Positions 46,401-56,178 of a stretch of 64,000 bases of DNA are shown here, piece by piece. The stretch spans positions 9,884 to 73,883 of the forward strand of contig CAYWNS010000001.1 of assembly GCA_964459715.1 (NCBI GenBank). Reading direction: 5' to 3'. A program made the position numbers and the translations under genes. The stretch is from an uncultured Akkermansia sp. (GTDB taxonomy: Bacteria; Verrucomicrobiota; Verrucomicrobiia; Verrucomicrobiales; Akkermansiaceae). Within the stretch, counting starts at the first letter, position 1. Each line of letters opens with the position of its first letter. The notes below the pieces were generated by a model. It was not told the DNA's origin, made no database searches, and saw nothing but the letters and a program-made list of their open reading frames with translations.

Positions 46401-47189
46401 GAGACTCAGACGCGCGAAGAGGGGGAGTATTTCCGTGCGCGGCAACTCGAGACCTTCCAAGGCTTCCGCACAGTCGCGTATCTCGCGCTCTCCCGGTAAA
46501 AAGACCAGCACATCCCCGCCCGCATCGTAGCTCGACAACCATTCCACGGCTCGAACCACATGGTCCGATAGCTCTTCTTCTTCGATGGGCGGCATGTAGT
46601 GCATTTCCACGGGATAGGTGCGCCCCTGCGCCTCTATCACCGGTGCCCCACCGAAAAAATCGGAAAAAGCGGCGGCATTCATCGTCGCCGAGGAGATAAT
46701 CACCCGCAGATCGCGGCGTCGCTTGAGCAGCAACTTCAAATAACCGAGCAGGAAGTCGATATTGAGACTGCGCTCATGGGCTTCATCGAGAATGATGGTA
46801 TGGTAGGCTCGCAGGTTGGGGTCCTTCTGCGTTTCGGCGAGCAGGATACCATCCGTCATGAGTTTAATGCGGGTGTTGGCATCCGTACGGTCATCAAACC
46901 GCACGTGGTACCCCACCATGCCCCCATCCGCGCCGAGCTCCTCTGCCAATCGCCGTGCCACCGCCACCGCCGCCAACCGTCGCGGCTGCGTACAGCCCAC
47001 CTTTCCCGGACGCTCCCCCGCCGCCATCAACGCCATCTTCGGCAGCTGCGTTGTCTTCCCGCTCCCCGTTTCGCCCACAACGACAACCACCTGTCGCGCC
47101 CGCAATGCCGCCACTATCTCTCGCCTGTGCGCACTGACGGGTAAGTCCGGAAAATCAAAGCACTTCATTCCTGTCCTATCTTTCGTCAT
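43479..47189 (-). CDS. hrpA: ATP-dependent RNA helicase HrpA
   Basis: GETGSGKTTQLPK, TQPRR, DEAHERSLNIDFL, SAT, NVAETSLT, QRAGRCGR, DUF3418-like C-terminus. Confidence 0.95.
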   Translation of the reverse strand: MTKDRTGMKCFDFPDLPVSAHRREIVAALRARQVVVVVGETGSGKTTQLPKMALMAAGERPGKVGCTQPRRLAAVAVARRLAEELGADGGMVGYHVRFDDRTDANTRIKLMTDGILLAETQKDPNLRAYHTIILDEAHERSLNIDFLLGYLKLLLKRRRDLRVIISSATMNAAAFSDFFGGAPVIEAQGRTYPVEMHYMPPIEEEELSDHVVRAVEWLSSYDAGGDVLVFLPGEREIRDCAEALEGLELPRTEILPLFARLSLADQQRIFHPNAGTRRIVLTTNVAETSLTIPGIMYVIDSGLARISRYLPGRQIQSLQVEAISQASARQRAGRCGRIAEGVCVRLYSEDDYNTRDAYTDPEIRRSALAGVILRMADLRLPPLGQFPLPDPPSERLIREGYKTLREIGALDANKRLTATGKQLARLPLDPRLGRILLEAKRENALAEALVIVAALSIQDPRERPAEHAEEADRAHAVWRNEQSDYLTLLQLWRAAYKESRDGRKLRRNALRRWCAPRYLSFTRMLEWNNLEQDLRDTLALAFRWRAPELMPPEQQAPADNIHRAILAGAPLQIGVWNREDRVYRSTAGRSFSIFPGSGLFRRKQRAAWVFGTELTETGRLWLRRAAELNPAWVEQVAPHLCSCHAFDPQWDSRAGVVYAKERVVCGGLTIIESRRISYARYYPAEARAMMISDGIIPQKMQGKYPFLIHLAEMLERVSTVEAKLRRRDLIRSPGSIYRFFDTRIPADCTSEKALRTWLARALKEQPQLLDIPYEQCIYPGEDNAPPELYPDELSYGSQSYPVYYLHDPAAPDDGVTIGVHIDQLSDFPEHLPGWGIPAHLEQRVEILLRTLPKSIRQRILPISESAELFCDEHAGCTPQKDILRELGDFVHRRTGVFCHPEEFDPTRLPPELITKVWVCDDEGQELALGTDVRQLRSRLASYREKRFYTQAKRAFSTTPMTRWDCGTLPEYVEVGNHLGYPALSDEEHSVRLRICASQEQASFVHRAGVRRLAWMRCAEYLHAIQKRLPISDLQARLAISTIGFKPADNARQSMYAAMDAGLAPLPRSPEEFEAACVHMREKLSDTLAGPITSVWCLLALVHEEFQRFRLTAPKTTAARTLADLERQWTWLTRPNFLCAAPPESLPDYSRFLRGLLDRLQRLALRPAADDLPRIDLFETVVPASFYDNYPTHADSAAWLHLAYMVAEFRLSIFSSAFARKHRSSPNALRARLLALS

Positions 47190-48295
47190 TGTACCGAATC
47201 GTCAACACGGGGCAGACTTTGGGGTAATTCTGCGGTACAGACGGAGGGTTTGATGTGGGCGCGGAGCGTCCAATACATCTGAGAGCGCAAAAGGTGGATG
47301 TCGGCACGCGCCAGTGCCGCATCAATGGCGCGTTTGTGGGCACGCACGGCATCGCGGGAAGGTCCGTGTACCATGCCCATGATCTGCGCCCCGCCGAAAA
47401 GCTGTGTCCCGCTGCGGTAGTAGCAATGGGTCATGCAGACGTGGCGGGCGCAGATACGCCCGGTCAACTCCTCCTGCCCGGGCTCGACCGCCCACATGAG
47501 CAGGGCAGCTTCATCCGCGGAGACGGCAGCGCGCGTGGCAGGGTCGGTGTGGTCGAGCACCACGGCGAAGTGTCCGAGCAGCCCCAACTTTGCCAGGTGC
47601 TCGGCTACGCGGCAGTATTCCTGCGTCGTCATGTCGAGATGCCGAGCCCTCGCCTGCCATATATCGGGGGTAATTTCCGCCTCGGTGAAGGGGACGCAGA
47701 CACTGCGGAGGACGCGCAGTTCCCGTTCATTGAGGTTTGGGGCAGCAGGGCACCGCATGGTGGGCAGTTCGGCGTCCAAGGTGCCGGGGGGCAAACCTGC
47801 TCGGCGCAAATGCCCCACACTCAAGCGAAACATACCCACCGTCGGCATGCACACGAAGTGAGTTGCCCCGATACGCCGCGCGAGTACGCGGCAGTAGGTT
47901 TCCGGGGGCGTGGCATTGCCGGGAAGCCGCAGAGTGGTCCACAAACGGTACTCCGCACCCGGGGCGTGCGGGTCCTCCGGTTCGCGAATGACCACATGAC
48001 CGGTGGCGGGGTCGTGCTCCGCGAGTTGGTCGAAAGCCGCCCGCAATGCCTCCGGCGGCACACGCCACGCGACAAGGCACCCCGGCGTGAGGGCACTACT
48101 CAGCGGGGTTTGGCGCACGCAGCGCACGATGCCGTCGCGCATGAGCCCGCGCAACCGCCGCTGCACCTCATCCACGGGTAGATCGCACCGTTCGGCGAGT
48201 TCCTCGAGCGGACGGGGACAGAACCCGGTGAGAGAATCTTCCGCCACTGCCAGAAGACGCCTGTTGACGGCATCATCGATCAGGAACTGCCTCAT
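47186..48295 (-). CDS. Lrp/AsnC-type duplicated protein, siroheme decarboxylase (AhbAB/NirDL)-like
   Basis: Two HTH+AsnC units with GHVVIR and THCYYR (HxYxR-like) motifs and GMVHG. Confidence 0.7.
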   Translation of the reverse strand: MRQFLIDDAVNRRLLAVAEDSLTGFCPRPLEELAERCDLPVDEVQRRLRGLMRDGIVRCVRQTPLSSALTPGCLVAWRVPPEALRAAFDQLAEHDPATGHVVIREPEDPHAPGAEYRLWTTLRLPGNATPPETYCRVLARRIGATHFVCMPTVGMFRLSVGHLRRAGLPPGTLDAELPTMRCPAAPNLNERELRVLRSVCVPFTEAEITPDIWQARARHLDMTTQEYCRVAEHLAKLGLLGHFAVVLDHTDPATRAAVSADEAALLMWAVEPGQEELTGRICARHVCMTHCYYRSGTQLFGGAQIMGMVHGPSRDAVRAHKRAIDAALARADIHLLRSQMYWTLRAHIKPSVCTAELPQSLPRVDDSVQ

Positions 48296-49525: not shown

Positions 49526-49812
49526 CACACTCGTTCCAATAAAATTTTCGAAAAACGCCGCAATGTCAGTTCCTATGCGGCTTCCACATGCTTTGCGCAC
49601 CATGGGGGGCATCTACCTCACAATTGCGTAGATTTGGTCCGAATGCATTGTTCCCGCTTTGCGTTTATCGTTTTCCTCCGCGCAACCGTGTTGCGCCTAA
49701 CTCCTTCACTTCGTACTTCGTACTTCGTACCTCGTACTTCCATTCCCCCGTGTCTTCCTGCCTCAAAGTCACCGCCCACCACTAGGCCCTTAATTTATTC
49801 GGGACAGATGTG
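49526..49812 (-). mobile_element. Family I repeat, reverse orientation
   Basis: Both TIRs, the palindrome, and heptamer x4. Confidence 0.85.
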
Positions 49813-51789: not shown

Positions 51790-52535
51790 CCCGCTACTCA
51801 CGCACTTCCTGCCTTTCACCTTTCTCCTACCACACACGCTTCTCCCCGGCTTTGCCACTTCGTACTTCGTACTTCGTACCTCGTACTTAATCCCCCTCCC
51901 CGTTTCCCTGCGACATAGTTATCGCCCACCACTAAGCCTCTCATTTATTTGGGGTGGGTATGCACAGCCGTCCTAATAAAATTTTCGAGAATCGCCGCGA
52001 TGCTAGTCCCCATGCGGGGTACAGACGCTCTGCGTACTAAGGGGGCTTCCACATCGCAGGTGCATGGATTTGATCCCCACGCGTTGTTCCGGCTTTGCTT
52101 CTTCCACCTCCCTCTGCGCAACTCCGTTGCGCCTAACTCTTTCACTTCGTACTTCGTACTTCGTACCTCGTACTTGATCCCCCTCCCCGTTTCCCTGCGA
52201 CAAAGTTATCGCCCACCACTAAGCCTCTCATTTATTTGGGGTGGGTATGCACAGCCGTCCTAATAAAATTTTCGAGAATCGCCGCGATGCTAGTCCCCAT
52301 GCGGGGTACAGACGCTCTGCGTACTAAGGGGGCTTCCACATCGCAGGTGCATGGATTTGATCCCCACGCGTTGTTCCGGCTTTGCTTCTTCCACCTCCCT
52401 CTGCGCAACTCCGTTGCGCCTAACTCTTTCACTTCGTACTTCGTACTTCGTACCTCGTACTTAATCACCCCCGTGTCTTCCTGCCCCAAAGCCACCGCCC
52501 ACCACCAAGCCTTTAATTTATTTGGGACAGATGTG
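51790..52535 (-). repeat. Family II/family I hybrid (51790-51962) plus two near-identical tandem family I copies (51963-52249, 52250-52535)
   Basis: 287-bp period with near-identical sequence. The hybrid switches from a family I left arm to a family II right arm inside the heptamer tract at ~51857-51888. Confidence 0.9.
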
Positions 52536-52563: not shown

Positions 52564-52592
52564 TTGCGGAAGAATGCGTTGTATGCTAGGAT
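52564..52592 (+). promoter_or_regulatory. Putative sigma70 promoter, leaderless, of coaE-rho
   Basis: TTGCGG-17-TAGGAT with an extended -10 TG, then 7 nt to GTG 52600. Confidence 0.55.
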
Positions 52593-52599
52593 GGGCGGC

Positions 52600-54498
52600 G
52601 TGAAGGTTATTGTAGTAACAGGGGGAATTGCCTGCGGGAAGAGTACGGTGGTGCGGTTGCTGCGGGAGGAATGTGAGCAGGAACCGACGGTGTTTGATTG
52701 CGACCGTGCTGTGGCGGCACTGTACGAGGAAGCCGGAGTGGCGCAAGAGCTCCGAGACGCATTCGGTGAGGAGGCGTTGGGAGCTGAGGGAGGAGTGAAT
52801 CGCAAGTACTTGCGCGAGCTGGTGATGTCGAGCGGGGAGGATAAGGCGAAACTGGAGGGTATCATTCACCCGAAGGTGGCGCGGCTGTGCGCGAGAGCGA
52901 TGGAAGAAGCCCAACAGGGCGGGGGAGTACCTATTTTCATCGCGGATGTGCCGCTATACTTTGAGAGCAAATGCTCGGAGTGGTTGAATGCCGATGTCGT
53001 GTGTACTGTGGCGGCATCTCGCGAGAAACAGACGGAAAGACTCCGACGACGCGGGGAGTTGCGTCCCGAAGATATGCAGGCTCTCATCGACGCGCAAGCT
53101 CCGACGGAAGAAAAGATGGTCAGGGCAGATTGCGTGATATGGAACGAGTGCCCCCGGGAACAACTTCGCGCGCAAGTCCAGCTGTTTTATCGCCATTTCC
53201 TTGAAAGGGATGTCAAGGCGTACATCGCGGTACGCTCCCAGTTCAGTGTCAACGACCTGCAAAAACTCTCCCCCGCTCAACTGCAGGATAAGGTGCGGGA
53301 GCTTTCCGCGCGCTGGATCACGGGTGATCTCACGCGGCGTCAGTTGGTCTCCGGCTTAACCCGCGCGCTCTCCCTCGGGGGAAGTCGCGTCTATGCGACC
53401 GGTGTCATCAGCCGGGGGAGACTTGCCCGGCAGTACGCGCTGCGGTACGCGGAATACAGTTTCCGCCCGGGATGGGACGATGTACTCATCCCTCCGGAGC
53501 TCGTGGACCGCCACGGTTTGCGCTTGGGCAACAAGGTGAAAGTGCAGGTGCGTGGGCAGCAGAGGTGGGAGCACCCCATCATCGCCACAGAGGTGTCGGA
53601 GATCGAGGGTATACCCGTTGCCGAGTATGTACAGCCGCCCGAGTTCGACCAACTCACCCCTCTCATCCCCCAAAAACGCTTGCTCTTGGAAAACAAGGAC
53701 ATCGATTCGCCCGCCATGCGTATGTTGGACTTGATAGCCCCGTTGGGCATGGGGCAGCGCGCGCTGGTGGTTGCCCCGCCGCGCGGCGGTAAGACAATTC
53801 TGCTCAAGACGATGGCACGTGCCCTGAGGGCAAATTATCCGGCGGCAGAGTTGCTCGTCCTCCTCCTAGATGAACGTCCGGAAGAAGTGACAGATTTTGA
53901 GGAGTCCGTGGGTGTCCCGGTCTTCGCCTCCACCTTTGATGAAAGTTCCTATCGCCACGAGCAACTCAGCGACATCGTGCTGGAGCGCGCGCGTCGCTTA
54001 GTGGAGCAAAAGAAAGATGTGATCATCCTCTTAGACTCCCTGACGCGTTTGGCTCGCGGCTACAACGCCAACGCGACGGGCGGACGCACGATGTCCGGCG
54101 GCTTGGACTCTCACGCGTTGGAAAAACCGCGTAAGTTTTTCGGCGCGGCGCGCAATGCCGAGGAAGGTGGGAGCCTCACTATCATCGCCACCTGTCTGGT
54201 GGATACGGAATCCCGCATGGACCAGATCATCTTCGAGGAGTTTAAGGGCACGGGAAACATGGAGGTCAGACTCGACCGCGAATTGGCTGAACGCCGAATT
54301 TACCCCGCCATCGCTCTGCCGCAGAGCGGAACCCGCAACGATGACCGTCTGTACCACCCGGATGAACTCTCCCGCGTGCTGCAACTACGTCGACAGTTGG
54401 CTGCCCACCCGGGTTGGGAAGCTCTGGAAATCTTGCTGGCTAACATCCGTAAAACTCAGAACAACGCCGAGCTGCTCCTTCGCGGTCTCAGTGCGTGA
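52600..54498 (+). CDS. rho: Dephospho-CoA kinase (CoaE) - transcription termination factor Rho fusion
   Basis: N-terminal [33 protein letters not shown] (CoaE). In the same frame follow [53 protein letters not shown] and SGTR (Rho). Confidence 0.92.
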
Positions 54499-54528: not shown

Positions 54529-54785
54529 GAAGTAGCAGAGTCAGGGAGCGACGCTTGGGTGATGCCGGAGCTTGGCGCGGGTTCTCTGTCCGCGTGACTC
54601 CTCTGCGTACCGCACTCGCGTCTTGCATGCTGTCCATAATACGCTCTGCGTACCACGGGGGCATCTCCTTCATGGACGTGCGGATTTGTGCTCCACGCGG
54701 GGTTTTCCGCTTCGCTCTCCTCGCCCGCATCTGCGCAACCTTGTTGCGCCTAACTTAAATACTTCGTACTTCGTACCTCGTACTT
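54529..54785. repeat. Family II fragment (+, 54529-54596) and family I right-arm fragment (-, ~54640-54785)
   Basis: GATGCCGGAGCTTGGCGCGGG...CCGCGTG, then GCGCAAC-ctt-GTTGCGCCTAAC and reverse heptamer x3. Confidence 0.75.
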
Positions 54786-55860
54786 ACTGTTGGGGGTTAT
54801 GCTGTTGGTTGATAGCATACGAGGCACTGCGGGTCGTTCCGTATTTCCTCAAAAAACCTTTTTTCACCAGACCTTGCACGGTTTTACGTATAGTTTCGGG
54901 GGATTGGGGAAAATGGCGCAGGATGTCAGACATCTTGAGGGATATCCCATGGACAAAGAGGCTCAGCACGGCACGCGCGGATTCCGACAGCGCGTCGTCG
55001 TGCCGTTGGGTTATGTCCGATATCGCGGTCTCTAAGCTACGCTTTTGTTTGACCAGAGAGGTGATAAAAAAGGAGAGCCACGGCTCATAGTTGACGCGTT
55101 CCGCTCCCATCGTTCTCTGCGTCCCGCGCAGCGCGCGATAATACGCGTCTTTGCTCGCTTCAATAATCGCCTCCATGGAAGAATAAGGCATGTAACTATA
55201 CCGGCATCTCAGCATGAGCAGGAGCGTCAGTGCCCGAGACAACCGCCCATTACCATCTGTAAACGGGTGGATGGCAAGGAAATGGACGATAAAGAGACCG
55301 ATGGTGACAATGGGGTGAAGAAGACCGTCTCGGAGTGCTTCGTTCGTCCATTCGACTAATTCCCGCATGAGACGCGGGGTCTCGAAGGGAGGCGCGGTCT
55401 CAAATATCGAGCCGATCTCGTGTCCTTCCGCGTCAAAGGCTGCCACGCGGTTGCTGTATTGTTTGTATTCGCCTCGGTGTCGCTCATCTTTGGCAGAGTA
55501 CCGCAGAAGGATTTGATGCATTTGCTTGATGTAGTTTTCTGTCAGCGGTATCTCTTTGTAGTTCTCGAAAATCGTTCGAACTAAGTCCCTATATCCGGCT
55601 ACTTCTTCTTCGTCTCGCGATCTGAATGACTTCCTGTCTATCTGTTCAAAGAGCGTCTCTACCTCCGCATCGCTCAATTTGTTGCCTTCTATCCGATTTG
55701 AGGAACCTACGGACTCGATCGTCGCAATGCGTTTCATCCCATTGAGCTCCTCCGGAGTCAACCGGAATGCTCCACCATTCCACGCGCCGTTAAATCGCTC
55801 GATTTCACTGATCATGTTGAGCATTTCCGCCGTGATGATGATGTCTCTTTGATTTGGCAT
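54784..55860 (-). CDS. Fic family protein with C-terminal wHTH
   Basis: Catalytic motif HPFTDGNGRLSR and N-terminal inhibitory-helix motif SNRIEGN. Start MPNQRD at 55860. Confidence 0.92.
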   Translation of the reverse strand: MPNQRDIIITAEMLNMISEIERFNGAWNGGAFRLTPEELNGMKRIATIESVGSSNRIEGNKLSDAEVETLFEQIDRKSFRSRDEEEVAGYRDLVRTIFENYKEIPLTENYIKQMHQILLRYSAKDERHRGEYKQYSNRVAAFDAEGHEIGSIFETAPPFETPRLMRELVEWTNEALRDGLLHPIVTIGLFIVHFLAIHPFTDGNGRLSRALTLLLMLRCRYSYMPYSSMEAIIEASKDAYYRALRGTQRTMGAERVNYEPWLSFFITSLVKQKRSLETAISDITQRHDDALSESARAVLSLFVHGISLKMSDILRHFPQSPETIRKTVQGLVKKGFLRKYGTTRSASYAINQQHNPQQ

Positions 55861-55910
55861 AATTCTTCCCAAATCCTCCCAAATCTTCCCAAATAAGTCA
55901 ACCATAAAAT

Positions 55911-55995
55911 TGGGAAGTACGAGGCGAATGGGAAGTACGAGGTACGAAGTACGAAGTGGCAAAGCCGGGAACGGCGGGCGCGGTGGGCAATGGGG
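55911..55995 (+). repeat. Heptamer tract plus family II right-arm fragment
   Basis: AAGTACGAGGTACGAAGTACGAAGTGGCAAAGCCGGG. Confidence 0.8.
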
Positions 55996-56178
55996 TTGCT
56001 CGGAAAAAAACGTGCGCATCTCTTTCCTAATCCGATGCACCGTGATAGAGCTTATTGCTATAGATAATCAATACCTTATGTCTCTGTTCCTCGTGAATTT
56101 TACATGCGACGATTCTTGTTATTGATCCTCCCCATTCGATATAATTTGCTTTTTTTTAAGGGAAACGTCATTTTTTGC

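What the first reader, a model, noticed from the sequence alone, without database searches (positions are those of the whole stretch)
52600..54498. Dephospho-CoA kinase fused in frame to transcription terminator Rho
Seen: a complete CoaE (~200 aa) continues without a stop (…[30 protein letters not shown]…) into a complete Rho, and no in-frame ATG marks a separate Rho start at the junction. The Rho RNA-binding motif is also divergent ([12 protein letters not shown]...DDVLIP versus canonical GFGFLR...DDIYVS). Known: coaE and rho are neighbours in several PVC genomes, and Rho is a hexamer that often carries N-terminal insertions. Inference: a hexameric Rho decorated with six CoA-pathway kinases could link termination to CoA/ATP status, or simply replace the usual N-terminal extension.
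Basis: partly seen in the sequence, partly recalled or inferred. Interest (0 to 1): 0.7.

Follow-up and report, generated by a model that had tools for sequence, protein, structure and literature searches.

The report
Rho terminator locked to CoA kinase
In most Akkermansia species, nearly all of them uncultured gut lineages, the last enzyme of coenzyme A synthesis is joined in one reading frame to one of the cell's two Rho transcription terminators, which keeps its motor residues but has lost the usual RNA-gripping ones; the fusion likely arose from overlapping neighbour genes and became permanent, and any regulatory link to coenzyme A is untested.

Summary
Real. Window 52600-54498 is one 632-aa frame: CoaE plus full Rho. 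It holds the only coaE found; a second rho exists. 130 of 154 Akkermansia species genomes are fused; fusions recur in other Akkermansiaceae, Planctomycetota and Sumerlaeota.

Split relatives overlap coaE's stop with rho's ATG. 43 of 50 other fusions keep that ATG in an unstructured context. The window's clade lost it and fixed a linker of constant length (69 of 71), predicted helical, dN/dS 0.10. It also gained a likely leaderless promoter.

In this clade the three RNA-contact aromatics are gone in 61 of 72, while ATPase and CoaE motifs are invariant. A. muciniphila has a rare one-base fused allele.

Best reading: an obligate two-activity protein. CoaE replaces Rho's disordered tail, and the Rho half is a motor working beside Rho-B. 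CoA sensing is unsupported but not excluded. Databases auto-annotate such proteins; ten literature searches found no description, and this scan had not reported it before.

The parts
52564..52592 (+). Predicted sigma-70-type promoter (-35 at 52564-52569, 17-nt spacer, extended -10 at 52584-52592) ending 7 nt before the GTG; likely leaderless mRNA
   Evidence: TAnnnT ends 6-8 nt before the start in 70 of 71 fused-clade loci, 0 of 17 split Akkermansia; not picked up by the consensus scan; no RNA data
52600..54498 (+). coaE-rho fusion ORF, 632 aa, GTG start
   Evidence: open in 130 of 154 genus genomes
52600..53199 (+). Dephospho-CoA kinase (CoaE) domain, about aa 1-200; only coaE found in this 74%-complete genome
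   Evidence: PF01121 and TIGR00152 over cut-off; PDB CoaE hits; motifs conserved; dN/dS 0.106
53155..53235 (+). CoaE C-terminal helix running on as the linker (aa 186-212, one predicted helix); no internal start codon
   Evidence: AF2 helix H186-212; W181-to-N218 spacing the same in 69 of 71, dN/dS 0.104
53239..53385 (+). Rho N-terminal helical domain (aa 214-262)
   Evidence: NF006886 match starts at aa 216; predicted helices 217-259; Pfam Rho_N not hit
53386..53634 (+). Rho OB-fold RNA-binding domain with relaxed primary binding site (Q278, L296, P326 at E. coli F62, Y80, Y110; R282 and D294 kept)
53635..54498 (+). Rho RecA-type ATPase/translocase domain, catalytic residues intact
   Evidence: K398/T399, E425, D479, R483, K549, R579 invariant in 72 of 72; dN/dS 0.031; TM 0.87 to E. 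coli Rho

Best explanation
This gene encodes a single CoaE-Rho protein, with no separate start codon for Rho, that likely arose when a frameshift joined the ancestrally overlapping coaE and rho genes and likely became permanent when Rho's own start and disordered tail were lost. Shown: both sets of catalytic residues are intact and under purifying selection, the linker has a fixed length, the RNA-contact aromatics of this Rho have been released from constraint, and a second Rho keeps them. Inferred: the CoaE part makes the cell's CoA; the Rho part assembles into rings as an ATP-driven RNA translocase and depends on its central (secondary) RNA site, on NusG/RNA polymerase contacts or on the second Rho (possibly in mixed rings) for loading; CoaE sits outside the ring in place of the old tail. 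The fusion is kept because both activities are needed and it can no longer be undone by one mutation, not because CoA controls termination.
For: Single frame, no internal start. Rho's ATG overlaps coaE's stop by 4 or 8 nt in 51 of 79 split loci scored. At least 13 state changes on a 219-row tree and 16 on a 92-row tree that adds Planctomycetota/Sumerlaeota-type fusions. 43 of 50 fusions outside this clade keep the ATG, followed by S/T/N/A as in split genes, in an unstructured context (folding z +2.19; split +1.93 and +1.73; locked clade +0.31). All 72 sampled members of the locked clade are fused and none keeps an ATG at the ancestral place, codons 20-24 after the anchor Trp. A. muciniphila has a fused allele one base shorter in a T run. 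CoaE motifs conserved; ATPase dN/dS 0.031, CoaE 0.106. All three RNA-contact aromatics absent in 61 of 72 versus present in 17 of 17 split Akkermansia and 47 of 50 other fusions. Rho-B in 149 of 154 genus genomes, F62- and Y80-equivalents kept in 20 of 20 examined.
Against: The linker is more constrained than a passive tether needs to be: same length in 69 of 71, dN/dS 0.104. coaE-rho adjacency and repeated fusion across three phyla could reflect a functional partnership. Two other ATG-less fusion clades (7 sequences) keep the RNA-contact aromatics, so locking does not by itself cause the decay. 20 of 72 locked-clade members have an ATG at codon 27 after the anchor, though not the window. The window's sub-clade has other aromatic and basic residues nearby (Y279, Y283, W292, W323) that may rebuild an RNA surface. 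Rho-B lacks the N-terminal domain and has Ala at the D78 position in the 12 Akkermansia rows examined. No expression, proteomic or biochemical data were obtained.
Confidence: 0.6

Rival explanations
1. Functional coupling: CoaE is held at a set angle on the Rho ring, and its ligand state (dephospho-CoA, CoA, ATP) or binding of CoA-capped RNA 5' ends would tune loading or activity, replacing the decayed primary RNA site.
For: Fixed-length, conserved, predicted helical linker; RNA-site decay nested inside the locked clade, with its basal members still intact; repeated fusions in three phyla; dephospho-CoA caps exist on bacterial RNA (PMC9283932, passages).
Against: Frequent gain and loss of fusion; linker-region length 25-128 codons in other fusions; other locked clades show no RNA-site decay; CoaE of this clade is net acidic (mean -7.3 versus -0.3 in the split-clade group), which does not favour RNA binding.
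Confidence: 0.13
2. The fused Rho-A is no longer a terminator in this clade; it is a retained ring ATPase with another job (RNA remodelling, R-loop clearance, scaffold), and Rho-B does all termination.
For: RNA-contact sites change faster than the OB-domain mean in this clade (16-21 changes versus 11.5) and slower elsewhere in the family (5-12 versus 18.5); F62S and Y80C impair RNA binding in E. coli Rho, and F62S impairs termination (PMC12133298, passages); Rho-B is highly conserved.
Against: Secondary-site loop residues, catalytic glutamate and arginine finger are invariant or nearly so; NusG-stimulated terminators are less sensitive to F62S and Y80C (bioRxiv 10.1101/2024.03.01.582989, passage); the N-terminal and OB domains stay under purifying selection (dN/dS 0.14).
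Confidence: 0.15
3. The frame is fused but the cell ends up with separate proteins, through a non-canonical internal start or cleavage in the linker.
For: A retained internal ATG is likely used in 43 of 50 other fusions; 20 of 72 locked-clade members have a linker ATG.
Against: No ATG/GTG/TTG in the window's linker and no conserved one in the clade; the low-structure signature is lost; the linker is predicted to be one helix, not an exposed loop.
Confidence: 0.1
4. Assembly or sequencing artefact.
For: The genome is a 74%-complete, 139-contig assembly; no raw reads were available, only contigs.
Against: Open frame in 130 of 154 species genomes and in named complete or isolate records such as Luteolibacter sp. 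Populi (L107); synonymous-only strain variation.
Confidence: 0.01

Closest known systems
Transcription termination factor Rho (E. coli Type 1; NF006886, TIGR00767)
   Same: N-terminal domain, OB fold and ATPase in the same order; TM 0.87 to E. coli Rho; all ATPase motifs checked are kept.
   Different: N-terminal folded enzyme; GFGF (RNP1), Y80 and Y110 positions changed; below the TIGR00767 and Pfam Rho_RNA_bind cut-offs; second Rho in the genome.
Rho Type 2a with 'initial region', and two-rho PVC genomes (Moreira et al. 2024, PMC11347177)
   Same: Extra N-terminal region; A. muciniphila's orthologue is listed as Type 2a (474 aa) beside a Type 2d Rho (584 aa); the paper raises hetero-hexamers.
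   Different: Its extra regions are described as low-complexity and disordered; 'CoaE' and 'dephospho' do not occur in the main text and 'CoaE' and 'PF01121' not in the supplement. Here the extra region is a folded kinase.
Dephospho-CoA kinase CoaE (PF01121, TIGR00152; E. coli structures 1VHL/1T3H by recall of the organism)
   Same: P-loop, D33/D35, HP, PL..E, lid arginines, Q166, N182.
   Different: C-terminal helix extended into Rho; likely its own leaderless promoter.
Auto-annotated CoaE-Rho proteins (UniRef100_A0A858RLU0 'Multifunctional fusion protein', Luteolibacter luteus; WP_149878174.1, A. muciniphila; a JGI 'Rho/dephospho-CoA kinase')
   Same: Same domain order.
   Different: The two Verrucomicrobiota entries keep the Rho ATG, the long disordered linker and the RNA-contact residues; the window belongs to the locked form. 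These are database labels, not descriptions.

Membership tests
Rho (NF006886/TIGR00767) | Score over the curated family cut-off | tested here: inconclusive
   NF006886 442.5 > 315 met; TIGR00767 439 < 509.45 not met
Rho (NF006886/TIGR00767) | RecA-type ATPase with Walker A/B, catalytic Glu, Arg valve and finger, Q- and R-loops | tested here: met
   Invariant or nearly so in 72 of 72; E. coli residue roles partly recalled, alignment
Rho (NF006886/TIGR00767) | N-terminal helical domain | tested here: met
   NF006886 matched from model position 2; AF2 helices and 420-column structural match; Pfam Rho_N not hit
Rho (NF006886/TIGR00767) | Primary RNA-binding site (RNP1 GFGF, Y80, Y110) | tested here: not met
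   Q278/L296/P326 in the window; all three non-aromatic in 61 of 72; R66 and D78 equivalents kept. Role of Y110, R66, D78 recalled
Rho (NF006886/TIGR00767) | Hexameric ring; RNA-dependent ATPase; transcription termination | not testable with these tools
   Needs biochemistry
Dephospho-CoA kinase CoaE | Family score and catalytic/ligand motifs | tested here: met
   PF01121 125.1 > 27; TIGR00152 117.6 > 65.55; motifs
Dephospho-CoA kinase CoaE | ATP-dependent 3'-phosphorylation of dephospho-CoA | not testable with these tools
   Inferred from being the only coaE found
Rho Type 2a (Moreira 2024) | Low-complexity, disordered initial region before the N-terminal domain | tested here: not met
   Initial region is a folded CoaE, pLDDT 81-95 by 10-residue block over aa 1-200
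Short-form Rho paralog (NF041509) | Score over cut-off; no N-terminal domain | tested here: not met
   373.1 < 628; N-terminal domain present

The most novel reading that the evidence does not exclude
In the locked gut-Akkermansia clade the rigidly attached CoaE has taken over from Rho's decayed primary RNA site: it senses dephospho-CoA/CoA, or grips CoA-capped RNA 5' ends (whose 3'-linked phosphate resembles CoA's 3'-phosphate), and so directs or gates Rho termination by metabolic state.
Probability: 0.07. Interest if true: 0.9.

Novelty: new variant of a known kind. Interest (0 to 1): 0.52.

Why it matters
A Rho carrying a folded metabolic enzyme is not among the four Rho types of the 2024 survey of 2,730 genomes (sections read), yet it is the majority state in the genus Akkermansia. 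One family shows every step of a gene fusion: overlap, fusion with a kept internal start, reversal, and locking. It also asks how a Rho with an intact motor and a relaxed primary RNA site works beside a second Rho. Because A. muciniphila has natural split and fused alleles one base apart, the cost or benefit of tethering CoaE to Rho, and the division of labour between two Rhos, can be tested in a cultured gut bacterium.

Tried and rejected
1) Complex prediction of CoaE (aa 1-211) with Rho (aa 214-632): 'no answer', score 0.00; no evidence either way.
2) Sequencing runs: no RNA holder listed; only contigs were laid, so no raw-read, start or expression evidence.
3) The consensus promoter scan found 0 sites; the promoter claim rests on cross-species conservation alone.
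4) Programmed frameshifting in split species was considered, since most split loci are out of frame. Set aside because an overlapping ATG explains the pattern; slippage at the T run of A. muciniphila was not tested.
5) The metagenome scan for T-run alleles used flanks that match a sister species, not A. muciniphila proper; all 21 hits were the split form, so it says nothing on the frequency of the fused allele.
6) ATG 52591 as start (a 635-aa database call, P0002): rejected because it overlaps the conserved -10 box.
7) A new basic RNA-binding surface on CoaE: not seen by net charge; surface mapping was not possible without model coordinates.
8) 'Met shows 0 changes' is by construction; the honest count is 43 of 50.
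9) Literature searches with no description of the fusion: (open-access library only; the 2013 phyletic survey of Rho was not read).

Full report
Observation. Window 52600-54498(+) is one open frame of 632 codons. CoaE covers aa 3-193 (Pfam 125.1 bits, TIGR00152 117.6, both over cut-off) and Rho aa 216-626 (NF006886 442.5 over 315; TIGR00767 439 under 509). There is no ATG, GTG or TTG in the linker. Contigs of three runs from one study bridge the junction without an indel, and all 30 listed ORF variants are synonymous. The genome (1.96 Mb, 74% complete) has no other coaE but has a second rho on contig C40. I call the fused one Rho-A and the other Rho-B. The closest named relatives are uncultured Akkermansia assemblies from herbivore guts.

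Distribution. Of 154 genus genomes, 129 match across the junction in one frame, one more (G041) is fused with a longer linker, 17 match CoaE only in a short frame, and 7 gave no match with this query (G041; one of the 7, G182, is split). The split ones include the A. muciniphila-type complete genomes, which may be why the fusion has been overlooked (inference). Fusions also occur in several other Akkermansiaceae genera, in one genome of another order among 401 phylum genomes searched, and on canonical Rho proteins named Planctomycetota and Ca. Sumerlaeota: 27 of the 120 proteins listed carry both PF01121 and PF07497, and they branch apart from Verrucomicrobiae Rho-A. On a FastTree of 219 de-duplicated loci the state changes at least 13 times, or 20 times if only gains are allowed. 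An IQ-TREE of 92 rows gives 16. These are gene trees of a convenience sample, not species trees.

How it arose. In 51 of 79 split loci scored, Rho's ATG overlaps coaE's stop by 4 or 8 nt, and Rho begins with an acidic, Pro/Ala-rich tail. A one-base change therefore fuses the genes. A. muciniphila shows this: a 673-aa fused protein has a CoaE identical at 198 of 198 positions to that of a split genome, and the lengths fit one base less in a T run (the fused allele's DNA was not seen). It is a minority form: one exact sequence on 59 contigs versus 1,000 or more for split CoaE. Fusions come in two grades. Outside the window's clade, 43 of 50 keep an in-frame ATG at the old Rho start, followed by S/T/N/A as in split genes. 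The RNA around it is as unstructured as in split genes (z +2.19, versus +1.93 and +1.73), so it likely still starts free Rho, and splits nest among these fusions. In the window's clade, all 72 sampled loci are fused, the old ATG, its open context (z +0.31) and the tail are gone, and no split is nested. The linker length is the same in 69 of 71, with dN/dS 0.104 over 18 close pairs. AlphaFold2 (pLDDT 83, pTM 0.69) predicts one helix from aa 186 to 212. This clade also left the ancestral position behind a large gene resembling the MUL2 secretion-channel gene (64 loci, none from this clade; identity inferred from the figure legend of PMC13174399). It has a TAnnnT box 6-8 nt before the start in 70 of 71 loci versus 0 of 17 split Akkermansia, which points to a leaderless transcript. 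STRING links between Rho and coaE/polA in Chlamydia (PMC8762339, passage) fit an old neighbourhood; the polA-coaE-rho order there is my recall.

State of the two halves. CoaE motifs are conserved in all rows that cover them (70-72 of 72). The Rho ATPase residues checked are invariant or nearly so, dN/dS is 0.031, and the model matches E. coli Rho at TM 0.87. The primary RNA site differs. The positions matching E. coli F62, Y80 and Y110 are all non-aromatic in 61 of 72 clade members, against all aromatic (or His at Y80) in 17 of 17 split Akkermansia, 47 of 50 other fusions and 64 of 80 other non-fused or undetermined loci. These sites change faster than the domain mean here and slower elsewhere in the family. 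Basal clade members still have them, so decay followed locking. F62S and Y80C weaken RNA binding in E. coli (PMC12133298, passages) but matter less at NusG-stimulated terminators (bioRxiv 10.1101/2024.03.01.582989, passage). Results that limit this reading: R66 and D78 equivalents remain; two other ATG-less clades keep the aromatics; Rho-A of distant orders is also loose at RNP1; and the window's sub-clade has other aromatics nearby. Rho-B is found in 149 of 154 genus genomes, keeps GFGF-type RNP1 and Y80 (20 of 20 examined), lacks the N-terminal domain, and has Ala at D78 in the 12 Akkermansia rows.

Mechanism. Best reading (0.6): an obligate two-activity protein. Shown: one frame, intact catalytic sets, fixed linker, relaxed RNA site, second Rho. 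Inferred: CoaE supplies CoA; Rho-A acts as a motor that is loaded without a strong primary site, perhaps in mixed rings with Rho-B; the fusion persists because it cannot be undone simply. Rivals: Rho-A no longer terminates (0.15); CoA-linked control (0.13), whose boldest form has CoaE reading dephospho-CoA-capped RNA (caps documented in PMC9283932, passages), with the net acidic CoaE against it; separate products in vivo (0.1); artefact (0.01).

What is known. Moreira et al. 2024 (PMC11347177; I saw the abstract, results parts 2-3 of 5, section 34, term searches of the text and of the supplement) describe two rho genes in 30 PVC genomes, list both A. muciniphila Rhos, and suggest hetero-hexamers. 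Their extra regions are disordered, and CoaE is not mentioned. Databases hold the fused proteins under automatic names, including 'Multifunctional fusion protein' for Luteolibacter luteus and 'Rho/dephospho-CoA kinase'. Ten searches of the open-access library found no description; subscription papers and bioRxiv supplements were not visible. Earlier scan notes report motor-only second Rhos in other phyla but not this fusion; I did not test them.

Verdict. A real, widespread and apparently undescribed variant of Rho, with a clear route of origin and an open question about how a Rho with a relaxed RNA site works. New variant of a known kind; interest 0.52.

Noticed in passing
window 51856-52429 (tandem pair), 49526-49812, 54641-54785, 55932-55969: A ~290-bp intergenic repeat family with a short internal tandem core flanks the gene; 386 exact copies of a 16-nt core in the genome and 931 blastn hits on 124 of 139 contigs; very high depth in the laid runs.
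   Followed up: partly
G000:C40:6945-8369 (L251): Rho-B lacks the N-terminal domain, has Ala at the D78 position in all 12 Akkermansia rows examined, and its open frame is much shorter in fused-clade genomes (mostly 440-540 aa) than in split ones (mostly 640-690 aa).
   Followed up: partly
L229:1498-1505 and proteins P0041, P0074-P0078: A. muciniphila carries a T run at the coaE/rho overlap; a minority allele that fits one base less gives a 673-aa fusion. Possible slippage switch, untested.
   Followed up: partly
window 54784-56040 (-): Fic/DOC-family gene directly downstream, between repeat copies.
   Followed up: no
window 47186-48295 (-): Siroheme decarboxylase NirDL-like/AsnC-domain gene between an IspE-like GHMP kinase and an HrpA-like helicase (the IspE and HrpA labels are recalled).
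   Followed up: no
L120, L121, L129, L131, L133, L135, L141, L146, L171, L174 (genus g21): Split Rho-A with an unusually long N-terminal extension of about 180-215 aa.
   Followed up: no
G086:C17:47016-48908 and G086:C47:3053-4945: One genome has two full-length coaE-rho fusion matches.
   Followed up: no
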